Assembly (NCBI GenBank): GCA_035506195.1
Contig: DATJPV010000023.1
Span: 1,050-65,049, forward strand
Direction: 5' to 3'
Source: Patescibacteria group bacterium
GTDB taxonomy: Bacteria; Omnitrophota; Gorgyraeia; Gygaellales; Profunditerraquicolaceae
DNA length: 64,000 nt
Numbering within the stretch: position 1 is the stretch's first letter; the number at the start of each line of letters is the position of its first letter. Below the pieces are notes generated by a model. It was not told the DNA's origin, did no database searches, and saw only the letters and a list, made by a program, of their open reading frames with translations. Positions 46,600-46,666 of the stretch are shown here, one piece after another. A program made the translations under genes and the position numbers.

Positions 46600-46628
46600 A
46601 TTAGAACATAAAAGTTTACTTTTGTCAA
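46600..46628 (-). promoter_or_regulatory. sigma70 promoter (extended -10) for the HTH-pilMN...pilC operon
   Basis: The minus strand reads TTGACA, then a 17-nt spacer ending in TGt, then TCTAAT. It lies about 40 nt upstream of the HTH gene ATG. Confidence 0.55.
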
Positions 46629-46636
46629 CTATTTTT

Positions 46637-46666
46637 TTACTTAAACTTACTTAAACTTACTTAGAT
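46637..46666 (-). repeat. three tandem 10-bp direct repeats abutting the -35 element
   Basis: The plus strand reads ttacttaaac ttacttaaac ttacttagat. On the minus strand this is TAAGTAAGTT x2 plus a degenerate third copy. The period is exactly 10 bp, about one helical turn. Confidence 0.8.

What the first reader, a model, noticed from the sequence alone, without database searches (positions are those of the whole stretch)
46600..46666. Three helically phased 10-bp direct repeats immediately upstream of the pilus operon -35 box
On the minus strand the sequence reads TAAGTAAGTT TAAGTAAGTT TAAGTAAAAA, then a 2-nt gap, then TTGACA-N17-(TGt)TCTAAT. The exact 10-bp periodicity places the repeats on one face of the helix at roughly -38 to -68. 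That is the geometry of class I activator sites or a phased A/T bend (UP-like element). I saw no comparable repeat at the other four TTGACA promoters in the window, so it is specific to this operon. The adjacent Xis-like HTH or the nearby DUF2582-like wHTH are obvious candidate binders.
Basis: seen in the sequence. Interest (0 to 1): 0.5.

Follow-up and report, generated by a model that had tools for sequence, protein, structure and literature searches.

The report
Conserved direct-repeat operator of pilus promoter
Three 10-bp repeats just upstream of a type IV pilus operon promoter are a real, strongly conserved control site in uncultivated Omnitrophota bacteria, and the small DNA-binding protein encoded by the operon's first gene most likely binds them.

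Summary
The repeats are real. On the minus strand, 46663-46634 reads TAAGTAAGTT TAAGTAAGTT TAAGTAAAAA. Then come AATAG (5 nt, not 2), TTGACA, 17 nt, and TCTAAT preceded by TG. A perfect 27-nt tandem exceeds all 20,000 shuffles of the intergenic region.

The window is from an Omnitrophota genome. In 65 distinct orthologous loci the noncoding block -70..-7 is 80% identical (median). The PilM-N protein it drives is only 56% identical, and the DNA just upstream only 30%.

Two GTAAG units at -70..-51 are family-wide. They always lie on the same strand, and neighbouring copies are exactly 10 bp apart in 71 of 82 cases. The third unit is a close match only in the window's lineage; relatives have TATATAAAAA there. 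Its A-run is a generic UP-like tract, also found at other promoters here.

The -10 never has A at position 2 (0 of 65). Most relatives also carry a helically phased distal copy.

The best reading is an operator bound head-to-tail by the operon's first gene product. This is a 63-aa excisionase-family winged helix whose predicted fold best matches BldC and Xis. The binder and the sign of regulation are not shown. A CpxR-like response regulator (box GTAAA-N5-GTAAA) is the main rival.

It is a new member of a known kind, of moderate interest.

The parts
46654..46663 (-). Repeat unit 1 (TAAGTAAGTT), about -70..-61 relative to the predicted start site
   Evidence: Sequence; TRF. It is family-wide: G at -67 in 62 of 65 distinct orthologous promoters. 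In the near-identical strain L002 it reads TAAGTAAATC. The two changes fall at the two least constrained positions of the unit.
46644..46653 (-). Repeat unit 2 (TAAGTAAGTT), about -60..-51
   Evidence: It is family-wide: G at -57 in 56/65 and T at -56 in 60/65. Spacing to unit 1 is exactly 10 bp.
46634..46643 (-). Repeat unit 3 (TAAGTAAAAA), about -50..-41. It is a close copy only in this lineage and overlaps the A-tract.
   Evidence: The consensus in relatives is TATATAAAAA, which shares 5 of the 7 core bases. Only the window clade has TAAGTAA or TAGGTAA at this position (window, L002-L004, L085-L088).
46632..46638 (-). A7 tract at -45..-39, like a proximal UP-element subsite
   Evidence: The A positions -42..-39 are A in 65/65. 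A similar A-run directly upstream of TTGACA occurs at the promoters at 47370 and 12360 in the window and throughout the DUF2582 promoter family. It is therefore a generic promoter feature.
46623..46628 (-). -35 hexamer TTGACA
   Evidence: Invariant in 65/65 orthologous promoters; listed.
46606..46622 (-). 17-nt spacer with TRTG / extended -10 (TG at 46608-46607) and a GTAA-like copy (AAAGTAAAC, 46622-46614)
   Evidence: TG at -15/-14 in 65/65. The spacer is moderately conserved (AAaTaA.t.TtTTATGT). An AAG motif occurs in the spacer of many loci, with its G at -27, -26 or -23. Its significance is unknown.
46600..46605 (-). -10 hexamer TCTAAT, non-canonical because it lacks A at position 2
   Evidence: T-12, A-9, A-8 and T-7 are present in 65/65. 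Position -11 is T in 47, C in 18 and A in 0 of 65. The other four TTGACA promoters in the window have TAnnnT.
46369..46560 (-). First gene of the operon: a 63-aa HTH_17 / excisionase-family winged-helix protein, the candidate binder
   Evidence: Pfam HTH_17, E 2e-16. TIGR01764 'excise' scores above its cut-off. It lies directly upstream of pilMN in essentially all 80 related loci at 70-86% identity. The AF2 model has pLDDT 84.6. The best Foldseek PDB matches are BldC-DNA complexes, RacA, Pukovnik Xis and other excisionases.
39215..46372 (-). Downstream type IV pilus assembly genes: pilM-pilN fusion (44801-46372), pilO, a 178-aa protein, secretin pilQ, ATPase pilB (40456-42183) and pilC (39215-40456)
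   Evidence: ORFs; Pfam. The HTH stop codon overlaps the pilMN start (ATGA at 46369-46372).

Best explanation
The repeats are the promoter-proximal part of a conserved, sequence-specific direct-repeat operator. The unit is TAAGTAAG plus a 2-nt linker, with a 10-bp period and all copies on one strand. The operator lies at -70..-51 and extends to -41 in this lineage.

It controls the promoter of the Omnitrophota type IV pilus assembly operon (HTH_17-pilMN-pilO-pilQ-pilB-pilC). That promoter has a perfect -35, a 17-nt spacer, an extended -10 TG, an UP-like A7 tract and a conserved defective -10 (T[T/C]TAAT).

The most likely binder is the operon's own first gene product, a 63-aa excisionase/BldC-like winged helix. 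It would bind as monomers lined up head-to-tail, one per 10-bp unit, on one face of the helix next to RNA polymerase. The operon would then regulate itself.

**Shown**
- The repeats, their conservation, their orientation and their phase.
- The promoter architecture.
- The protein's family, its predicted fold and its strict linkage to the operon.

**Inferred**
- That this protein is the binder: about 0.5.
- That binding activates from a class-I-like position, compensating for the poor -10: about 0.55 against repression.
- That the phased distal copy seen in relatives cooperates through DNA bending or looping.
For: **Purifying selection**
- Against the 89%-identical relative L004, four-fold degenerate sites are 58% identical. 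The 110-nt block from the repeats to the ATG is 88% identical (39 of 42 in the repeats plus A-tract). The 72 nt upstream of the block are about 51% identical.
- Across 61 loci, the PilMN N-termini have a median pairwise identity of 56%. The block -70..-7 is 80% identical, and the adjacent -110..-73 is 30%.

**Specific recognition rather than A/T content**
- G-67 is present in 62/65 and G-57 in 56/65, while linker position -61 is free.
- Copies on the same strand number 191, against 12 on the opposite strand, within -250..+100.
- The tandem pair occurs 71 times in the upstream zone and only twice elsewhere in 339 kb, both strands counted.

**Phase**
- Neighbour spacing is exactly 10 bp in 71 of 82 cases, and otherwise mostly 20 or 30.
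- The arrays start at -69 or -79.
- Distal-to-proximal distances cluster at 51-56, 63-67 and 73-76 bp. The Rayleigh p is about 4e-9 at a 10.5-bp period, not corrected for phylogeny.

**Binder**
- The HTH_17 gene is always the first gene and is 70-86% identical across loci, against 42-52% for PilMN.
- It belongs to TIGR01764 and Pfam HTH_17.
- Its predicted fold best matches BldC-DNA complexes (rmsd 1.6-2.1 A), Xis, RdfS and pSK1 Par.
- BldC binds direct repeats of varying number as head-to-tail multimers (PMC5859096). D29 Gp36 and RdfS are related small wHTH proteins that regulate transcription; Gp36 binds direct repeats and RdfS binds within its own promoter.
- Copy number here varies from 1 to 3, including odd numbers. 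That suits a monomer-per-unit binder.
- The DUF2582 gene's own conserved promoter has no GTAAG.

**Activator dependence**
- A at -11 is absent in 65 of 65 promoters, although the -35 is perfect and TG is invariant.
Against: - No binding or expression data exist, so the identity of the binder rests on linkage and analogy.
- DUF2582, another small winged helix, is equally syntenic and equally conserved at 73-85% identity.
- GTAAG-N5-GTAAG resembles the CpxR box GTAAA-N5-6-GTAAA of OmpR/PhoB-type response regulators. Such a regulator could be encoded elsewhere in the genome.
- BldC's recognition sequence (AATTxxxxC, roughly 9-bp units) is unlike this motif. Sequence similarity to solved Xis and BldC proteins is marginal (E 0.04; Foldseek E about 0.03).
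- Indels quantised at 10 bp could come from slippage of 10-bp units rather than from selection for phase.
- In a more distant lineage (L090, HTH 67% identical) the promoter and HTH gene persist, but the proximal repeats are replaced by A-tracts. The proximal pair is therefore not indispensable.
- A near-consensus -35/TG/UP promoter could equally be a target for repression.
Confidence: 0.5

Rival explanations
1. The repeats are a tandem box for an OmpR/PhoB-family response regulator, similar to CpxR. The regulator would be encoded elsewhere in the genome and would bind as a head-to-tail dimer to two direct repeats 10 bp apart. Pilus assembly would then be under two-component control.
For: [quoted passage not shown] Many relatives, and the window's third unit, actually read GTAAA.
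- The commonest configuration is a pair (48 of 65).
- The location at -70..-51 suits activation by a response regulator.
Against: - No response regulator was found among the window ORFs scanned. This is weak evidence, because only part of one 64-kb window was checked.
- Single copies (the distal element) and triple copies also occur (window clade, L089, L046/L050). These fit a dimer less well.
- Within 339 kb of related loci and the 64-kb window, the pair occurs essentially only at this promoter. That looks like a dedicated local regulator.
- The resemblance to CpxR comes from a distant phylum and is a lead, not a test.
Confidence: 0.2
2. The DUF2582 winged-helix protein binds the repeats. Its gene lies two genes upstream under its own promoter. 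This would couple the upstream DUF2582-pseudopilin unit to the pilus assembly operon.
For: - DUF2582 is present in 44 of 45 loci with enough upstream flank, at 73-85% identity. It always has the same position and orientation.
- It scores above the Pfam gathering threshold as a winged-helix domain.
Against: - Its own conserved promoter carries no GTAAG element.
- Nothing is published on DUF2582 in the searched library, so there is no precedent for binding to direct repeats.
- Some loci have a short GC-containing inverted repeat or a CGACGGAG motif near -88. That would suit a dimeric wHTH better than the direct repeats do.
Confidence: 0.12
3. No dedicated protein is involved. The phased units and the A-tract form an intrinsically curved, UP-like upstream region. 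It would stimulate RNA polymerase through the alpha C-terminal domains or by wrapping.
For: - The A7 tract at -45..-39 matches the position of a proximal UP subsite, and the same A-run recurs at unrelated promoters.
- In L090 the position of the proximal repeats is occupied by phased T5/A8/A7 tracts. This suggests that curvature can substitute for them.
Against: - Curvature or alpha-CTD contacts do not explain near-invariant G and T at fixed positions in an A/T-rich background.
- They do not explain the strict strand orientation.
- They do not explain the recurrence of the same 8-mer in a distal element at variable but phased distance.
Confidence: 0.08
4. The third repeat, and the perfect identity of repeats 1 and 2 in this genome, are by-products of slippage or conversion between 10-bp units. 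They would add no function beyond the ancestral two-unit site.
For: - The third unit is lineage-specific.
- In strain L002 unit 1 reads TAAGTAAATC, ending in the same ATC triplet that precedes unit 1. This is consistent with conversion-like events.
- The 10-bp insertions in seven loci look like duplications of the degenerate third unit.
Against: - The third unit has been kept as TA[AG]GTAA in three diverged members of the clade, where four-fold sites are only 58% identical.
- A three-copy array arose independently in L089 and in distal elements.
Confidence: 0.1

Closest known systems
BldC of Streptomyces (stand-alone MerR-like wHTH) and its direct-repeat operators
   Same: - BldC is a small (68-aa) single-domain winged helix without dimerisation or effector domains.
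- It binds direct repeats of variable number as head-to-tail multimers on one DNA face (PMC5859096).
- It is the best structural match to the model of the window's 63-aa protein.
   Different: - Sequence identity is only about 25%, and no sequence-level hit to BldC was found in the PDB search.
- BldC's unit is AATTxxxxC, about 9 bp long, whereas the unit here is TAAGTAAG with a 10-bp period.
- BldC is a pleiotropic developmental regulator. The protein here is hard-wired as the first gene of one operon, and binding is untested.
Excisionase / recombination directionality factors that also regulate transcription (lambda, L5 and Pukovnik Xis, P2 Cox, RdfS, D29 Gp36)
   Same: - They belong to the same domain family (TIGR01764/HTH_17). 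Pukovnik Xis is the only sequence hit below E 0.1 in the PDB search.
- They oligomerise on DNA; Gp36 binds direct repeats, and the tandem-site arrays of Xis and Cox are from my own knowledge. Some bind their own promoters (RdfS) or repress transcription (Gp36).
   Different: There is no integrase, no att site and no mobile-element context here. The gene sits in a conserved chromosomal pilus locus.
CpxR / OmpR-PhoB-family tandem boxes
   Same: They consist of two direct pentamer repeats with a centre-to-centre spacing of about 10 bp. The CpxR box is GTAAA-N5-6-GTAAA. From my own knowledge, CpxR regulates pilus genes in enterobacteria.
   Different: - No response regulator was found in the part of the window that was checked.
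- Single and triple copies occur here.
- The phylum is distant, so the resemblance may be coincidental.
UP element (alpha-CTD site) with proximal A-tract
   Same: An A-run lies immediately upstream of -35, at -45..-39. It is shared with other promoters of this genome.
   Different: The GTAAG units at -70..-51 have conserved G positions and a fixed orientation. They are specific to this promoter, which is not expected of an UP element.

Membership tests
BldC/Xis-type system (stand-alone wHTH plus direct-repeat operator) | A small single-domain excisionase/MerR-like winged-helix protein with no dimerisation or effector domain | tested here: met
   The protein is 63 aa. Pfam HTH_17 covers residues 4-54, and TIGR01764 scores above its cut-off. 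The AF2 fold is beta-alpha-alpha-beta-beta-alpha, and the best PDB matches are BldC, RacA, Xis and RdfS.
BldC/Xis-type system (stand-alone wHTH plus direct-repeat operator) | The target DNA is an array of direct (not inverted) repeats, of variable number, about one unit per helical turn | tested here: met
   The unit period is 10 bp in 71 of 82 neighbouring pairs. There are 1-3 copies per array. The orientation is strictly one strand.
BldC/Xis-type system (stand-alone wHTH plus direct-repeat operator) | The protein binds the repeats cooperatively, head-to-tail, and distorts the DNA | not testable with these tools
   This needs EMSA, footprinting or a co-structure. Only genetic linkage and fold analogy are available.
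OmpR/PhoB-family response-regulator box (CpxR-like) | Two direct half-sites with a centre-to-centre spacing of 10-11 bp | tested here: met
   GTAAG-N5-GTAAG is present in 48 of 65 promoters at -69/-59. The CpxR motif is GTAAA-N5-6-GTAAA.
OmpR/PhoB-family response-regulator box (CpxR-like) | A cognate response regulator is encoded in the genome, and sites occur as pairs matching a dimer | tested here: inconclusive
   No response regulator was found among the 42 window ORFs scanned, but the rest of the genome is unseen. Single and triple copies also occur.
UP element | An A/T-rich -40..-60 region with an A-tract in the proximal subsite, and no requirement for G/C at fixed positions | tested here: not met
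   This is met only for the A7 run at -45..-39. The repeat units carry G at -67, -63, -57 and -53 in 44-62 of 65 loci, so the repeats themselves are not an UP element.
Class I activator site geometry | The site is centred near -61.5, or further upstream by whole helical turns, on the same face as RNA polymerase | tested here: met
   The pair is centred at -60.5 in 48 of 65 loci and at -70.5 in 7. This assumes a start site 7 nt downstream of the -10, which is not mapped.
Phase-variable (slipped-strand) promoter repeats | Copy number differs among near-identical strains, and changes in repeat length alter -35/-10 spacing or a reading frame | tested here: not met
   Two near-identical strains (L002, L003) have the same copy number. 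The repeats lie upstream of -35, and the spacer is 17 nt in every promoter kept by the strict TTGACA-N17-TnnAAT anchor.
Canonical MerR-type operator | A palindrome inside an over-long (19-20 bp) -35/-10 spacer, bound by a coiled-coil dimer | tested here: not met
   The spacer is 17 nt. The repeats are direct and lie upstream of -35. The protein has no coiled-coil region, being only 63 aa long.

The most novel reading that the evidence does not exclude
The HTH_17 protein, the proximal GTAAG array, the helically phased distal GTAAG element and the universally A(-11)-less -10 together form a clade-wide 'poised promoter' switch. A chromosomal Xis/BldC-like architectural protein would polymerise head-to-tail and wrap or loop about 100 bp of upstream DNA. 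This would license open-complex formation at a promoter that binds RNA polymerase well but cannot melt on its own. The number of units would change in 10-bp steps and tune the output. That would be a domesticated excisionase acting as the dedicated master switch of type IV pili in ultra-small, probably host-attached bacteria.
Probability: 0.15. Interest if true: 0.65.

Novelty: new member of a known kind. Interest (0 to 1): 0.45.

Why it matters
Omnitrophota are uncultivated, often ultra-small bacteria, and their surface appendages are central to ideas about how they live. Nothing is known about how they regulate genes.

This locus offers a compact and testable regulatory module. It comprises a 63-aa protein, an 8-bp recognition unit in a 10-bp-phased array, and a promoter more conserved than the proteins it drives. 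All of it can be synthesised and tested in vitro or in a surrogate host without culturing the organism.

The module would also extend the BldC/Xis style of head-to-tail binding to direct repeats. That style is so far known from actinomycete development and mobile elements. Here it would be chromosomal control of type IV pilus assembly.

If the binder turns out to be a response regulator or DUF2582 instead, the site still defines the first cis-regulatory motif for this clade.

Tried and rejected
**Searches that led nowhere**
- The genome-contig scan with PilMN gave only one distant relative (28% identity, L001). It has no HTH gene and no motif, so it was uninformative.
- An Rfam search of 46200-47500 at E<=1 found nothing, so no known RNA element is present.
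- A scan of viral contigs for AAGTAAGTNTAAGTAAG gave 29 hits. None has the TTGACA context or an HTH homologue, so these are unrelated repeats.
- The sequence search of the PDB gave only a marginal Xis hit at E 0.04. A fold search was needed.
- The literature search for DUF2582 found nothing. The search for Omnitrophota plus type IV pili found nothing on regulation.

**Ideas considered and rejected**
- The alternative upstream promoter CTAACA-N18-TATAAT (46708-46679) would put the repeats in a 5' leader. I rejected it because that stretch is not conserved even in the 89%-identical relative.
- I tried other readings of the -10 (TATGTT, TAATTA). Their spacing to TTGACA would be 12 or 19 nt, and they would lose the invariant TGn register.
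- NCBIfam antiphage MAD1 scores 72.5 against a cut-off of 80, so the protein is not filed as a member.

**Checks that did not discriminate**
- I looked for a response regulator in the window and found none among the ORFs scanned.
- More distant HTH homologues gave mixed results. L090 keeps the promoter but lacks the proximal repeats. L091 is in a non-pilus context without the motif. Neither gave a usable test of protein-motif covariation.

**Not attempted**
- I did not compute DNA curvature, because I had no reliable parameter set.

Full report
**1. The observation**

On the minus strand the window reads TAAGTAAGTT (46663-46654), TAAGTAAGTT (46653-46644) and TAAGTAAAAA (46643-46634). This is followed by AATAG, TTGACA (46628-46623), a 17-nt spacer ending in TATGT, and TCTAAT (46605-46600). 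The ATG of a 63-aa ORF lies at 46560.

The gap is 5 nt rather than 2. The repeats therefore span about -70 to -41.

Tandem Repeats Finder gives period 10, 2.7 copies and 100% identity. A perfect 27-nt tandem was never reached in 20,000 shuffles of the intergenic region (maximum 24) or in 30 shuffles of the window (maximum 25).

The consensus promoter scan missed this promoter because TCTAAT lacks A at position 2. It listed instead CTAACA-N18-TATAAT at 46708-46679. Comparative data argue against that upstream candidate (section 3).

**2. Context**

The downstream genes, in order, are:
- an HTH_17 / excisionase-family protein;
- a PilM-PilN fusion;
- PilO;
- a 178-aa protein;
- the secretin PilQ;
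- the ATPase PilB;
- PilC.

The pilin genes follow under their own TTGACA promoter, which has no repeats.

The upstream genes on the same strand are ExbB, ExbD, a TonB-like protein, a 73-aa zinc-ribbon membrane protein, a DUF2582 winged helix with its own promoter, and a 122-aa pseudopilin-like protein.

Names attached to homologues place the window in Omnitrophota. NCBI labels the identical protein 'Patescibacteria group'.

**3. Close relatives**

Two near-identical strains (L002, L003) have the same three units. L002 differs from the window at only two positions in the 227-column alignment of the intergenic region and its edges. Both changes are in unit 1 (TAAGTAAATC), at what turn out to be the two least constrained positions of the unit.

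In a relative with 89% PilMN identity (L004), the upstream half of the intergenic region cannot be aligned. That half includes the CTAACA/TATAAT candidate. Conservation starts abruptly at TTAAATC, just 5' of unit 1, and runs to the ATG.

| Region compared (window vs L004) | Identity |
|---|---|
| Four-fold degenerate sites of five flanking genes | 58% |
| 110-nt block from the repeats to the ATG | 88% |
| Repeats plus A-tract | 39 of 42 |
| 72 nt upstream of the block | about 51% |

A further species of the same clade (L085-L088) reads TAAGTAAGTT TGAGTAAGAT TAGGTAAAAA.

**4. The wider family**

A metagenome scan with a PilMN alignment returned 80 loci with 42-52% PilMN identity. The HTH_17 gene lies directly upstream of pilMN in essentially all of them. 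At 70-86% identity it is far more conserved than PilMN.

I anchored 65 distinct upstream regions on TTGACA. The consensus from -70 to -36 is taAGTAAgT.TAAGTAAgaaTAtATAAAAAAAcAC. It is followed by TTGACAAAaTaA.t.TtTTATGTTtTAATTAA, and information content collapses 5' of -72.

PilMN N-termini have a median pairwise identity of 56% among these loci. The noncoding block -70..-7 has 80%, and the neighbouring -110..-73 has 30%. The promoter region is thus better conserved than the protein it expresses.

**5. Anatomy of the array**

*Positions within the unit.* G-67 is present in 62/65, T-66 in 62/65, A-65 and A-64 in 62-63/65, and G-63 in 49/65 (A in 13). T-62 is present in 62/65, position -61 is free, and T-60 is present in 61/65. 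The same pattern recurs 10 bp downstream.

*The third unit.* In the family it is TATATAAA, which shares five of the seven core bases with TAAGTAA. Only the window's clade has TA[AG]GTAA there.

*Orientation.* There are 191 same-strand copies and 12 opposite-strand copies within -250..+100.

*Specificity.* The tandem pair occurs 71 times in the upstream zone and twice elsewhere in 339 kb, both strands counted. In the 64-kb window it occurs only here.

*Configurations*:

| Position of copies | Number of loci |
|---|---|
| -69, -59 | 48 |
| -79, -69 (an exact 10-bp insertion before the A-tract) | 7 |
| -69, -59, -49 (window lineage) | 3 |
| -59 only | 4 |

L089 has three copies, at -79, -69 and -59. 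Neighbouring copies are exactly 10 bp apart in 71 of 82 cases.

*Caveat.* An array of 10-bp units will tend to gain and lose 10 bp by slippage. The quantised indels alone therefore do not prove selection for helical phase.

**6. A distal element**

Forty-four of the 65 loci also carry an upstream element: aAatctATtaTAATcTAAGTAAgT.TaTTATAaaattataTg.tttaatTt. It holds one GTAAG copy, and sometimes two or three.

Its distance to the proximal array clusters at 51-56, 63-67 and 73-76 bp, with none at 57-62 or 68-72. The Rayleigh p is about 4e-9 at a 10.5-bp period, not corrected for shared ancestry. The intervening DNA is not repetitive, so this is better evidence for a helical-face constraint than the indels are.

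The element ends in a TATGnTTTAAT sequence that resembles the extended -10 of the main promoter. L084 carries a full upstream duplicate of the promoter. The distal element may therefore be a decayed, or second, promoter.

The window's clade lacks the canonical distal element.

**7. The core promoter**

- TTGACA is invariant.
- TG at -15/-14 is invariant.
- The -10 is T[T/C]TAAT, with T at -11 in 47, C in 18 and A in 0 of 65.

The other four TTGACA promoters of the window have canonical TAnnnT hexamers. The conserved DUF2582 promoter reads TAnAAT.

An A-run followed by 2-3 nt and then TTGACA also occurs at 47370, at 12360 and throughout the DUF2582 promoter family. The A7 tract is therefore a generic UP-like feature rather than part of the specific repeat signal.

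A perfect -35, TG and an A-tract combined with a universally defective -10 suggest a promoter that recruits polymerase well but depends on a factor for melting. This is an inference.

**8. Who binds?**

*The HTH_17 protein.* It is 63 aa long. It belongs to TIGR01764 and Pfam HTH_17. Its only PDB sequence match below E 0.1 is mycobacteriophage Pukovnik Xis. The AF2 model (pLDDT 84.6) best matches BldC-DNA complexes (rmsd 1.6-2.1 A, about 25% identity), then RacA, Xis, the GIsul2 excisionase, RdfS and pSK1 Par.

BldC binds direct repeats of varying number as head-to-tail multimers (PMC5859096). D29 Gp36 binds direct repeats and represses transcription. RdfS binds within its own promoter. Monomer-per-unit binding fits the variable and sometimes odd copy numbers seen here.

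*DUF2582.* It is equally syntenic and equally conserved, so co-occurrence cannot discriminate between the two. Its own promoter lacks GTAAG.

*A response regulator.* GTAAG-N5-GTAAG resembles the CpxR box. No response regulator was found among the window ORFs scanned, but the rest of the genome is unseen.

*More distant homologues.* A lineage with a 67%-identical HTH (L090) keeps the HTH gene, the promoter and the distal copy. Phased A-tracts stand where the proximal pair would be. A 60%-identical HTH in a non-pilus context has no GTAAG upstream.

**9. Verdict**

The repeats are under purifying selection and are phased. They form a sequence-specific operator of the pilus operon promoter.

I put about 0.85 on 'protein-binding operator'. 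Within that I put about 0.5 overall on the HTH_17 protein as binder, 0.2 on an unlinked response regulator or other factor, and 0.12 on DUF2582. The sign of regulation is open, and I lean slightly towards activation because of the pair's centre at -60.5 or -70.5 and the crippled -10.

This is a new member of a known kind: a direct-repeat operator for a small Xis/BldC-like regulator. It lies in an unstudied phylum and is unusually deeply conserved. Interest is moderate.

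Noticed in passing
window 46600-46605 (minus strand); 65 related loci: The -10 hexamer of this promoter is T[T/C]TAAT in every orthologue. A at position 2 (-11) occurs in 0 of 65, although -35 and TG are invariant. Other promoters in the window have canonical TAnnnT hexamers.
   Followed up: partly
related loci, e.g. L036 about -180 to -110 relative to the start site; absent from the window: A conserved distal element, ATTATAAT-CTAAGTAAGT-CTATTATAAAATTATATGnTTTAATTT, is present in 44 of 65 loci. It lies 51-56, 63-67 or 73-76 bp upstream of the proximal array, which is helically phased. 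It may be a second or decayed promoter.
   Followed up: partly
L029, L019, L045, L037, L074 and others, about -87 to -89; also L090 410-440: A GC-containing motif, CGACGGAG/CGTCGGAG, sits at a fixed distance upstream of the proximal repeats in at least 12 loci. It is often part of a short inverted repeat (e.g. CGGAG-N7-CTCCG in L037). It could be a site for a dimeric regulator.
   Followed up: partly
L009 and L078, between the promoter and the HTH start codon: Roughly 240-nt insertions lie in the 5' untranslated region. The L009 insert contains inverted repeats (GGGATTACACAGATT ... AATCTGTGTAATC). The repeats and promoter upstream are intact. This may be a small mobile element or a structured leader.
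   Followed up: no
L084, about 130 bp upstream of the main promoter: A complete upstream duplicate of the repeat-plus-promoter unit is present (TAGGTAAGTTTAAGTAAGATTATATAAGAAAACACTTGACAGATTAAG...), while the main promoter has only one GTAAG copy.
   Followed up: no
window 46369-46372: The stop codon of the HTH_17 gene overlaps the start codon of pilMN (ATGA). This suggests translational coupling of the putative regulator with the pilus assembly proteins.
   Followed up: no
window 47342-47400 and related loci: The DUF2582 gene has its own conserved promoter (A-run, TAG, TTGACA, N17, TAnAAT). In many relatives the A-run and upstream bases are the last codons (..CPRCGSYNKK*) of the preceding zinc-ribbon gene.
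   Followed up: partly
window 39215-51770 and 45 related loci: The gene order ExbB-ExbD-TonB-like-Zn-ribbon(73 aa)-DUF2582-pseudopilin(122 aa)-HTH_17-pilMN-pilO-P178-pilQ is conserved across loci whose PilMN is only about 50% identical. A TonB/Exb-type energising module is thus fixed next to the type IV pilus genes.
   Followed up: no
proteins P0245, P0247, P0252, P0259 (not in the window): Relatives of the HTH_17 protein exist as two or three tandem copies of the domain in one polypeptide. Covalently linked domains would be expected to read tandem DNA repeats.
   Followed up: no
window 46614-46622 (minus strand), inside the -35/-10 spacer: The spacer contains another GTAA-like copy (AAAGTAAAC). 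Many relatives have AAG in the spacer with its G at -27, -26 or -23. Positions -27 and -23 are in register with the upstream array.
   Followed up: partly
window 9171-9199: This is the only other long perfect tandem repeat in the window: TGCGGCGGCTCC, period 12, 2.4 copies. It was not examined.
   Followed up: no
whole window: NCBI labels the identical PilM and HTH proteins 'Patescibacteria group bacterium'. All close relatives that carry a name are labelled Omnitrophota or Omnitrophica, apart from one labelled Deltaproteobacteria, so the label is probably a taxonomic misassignment.
   Followed up: no
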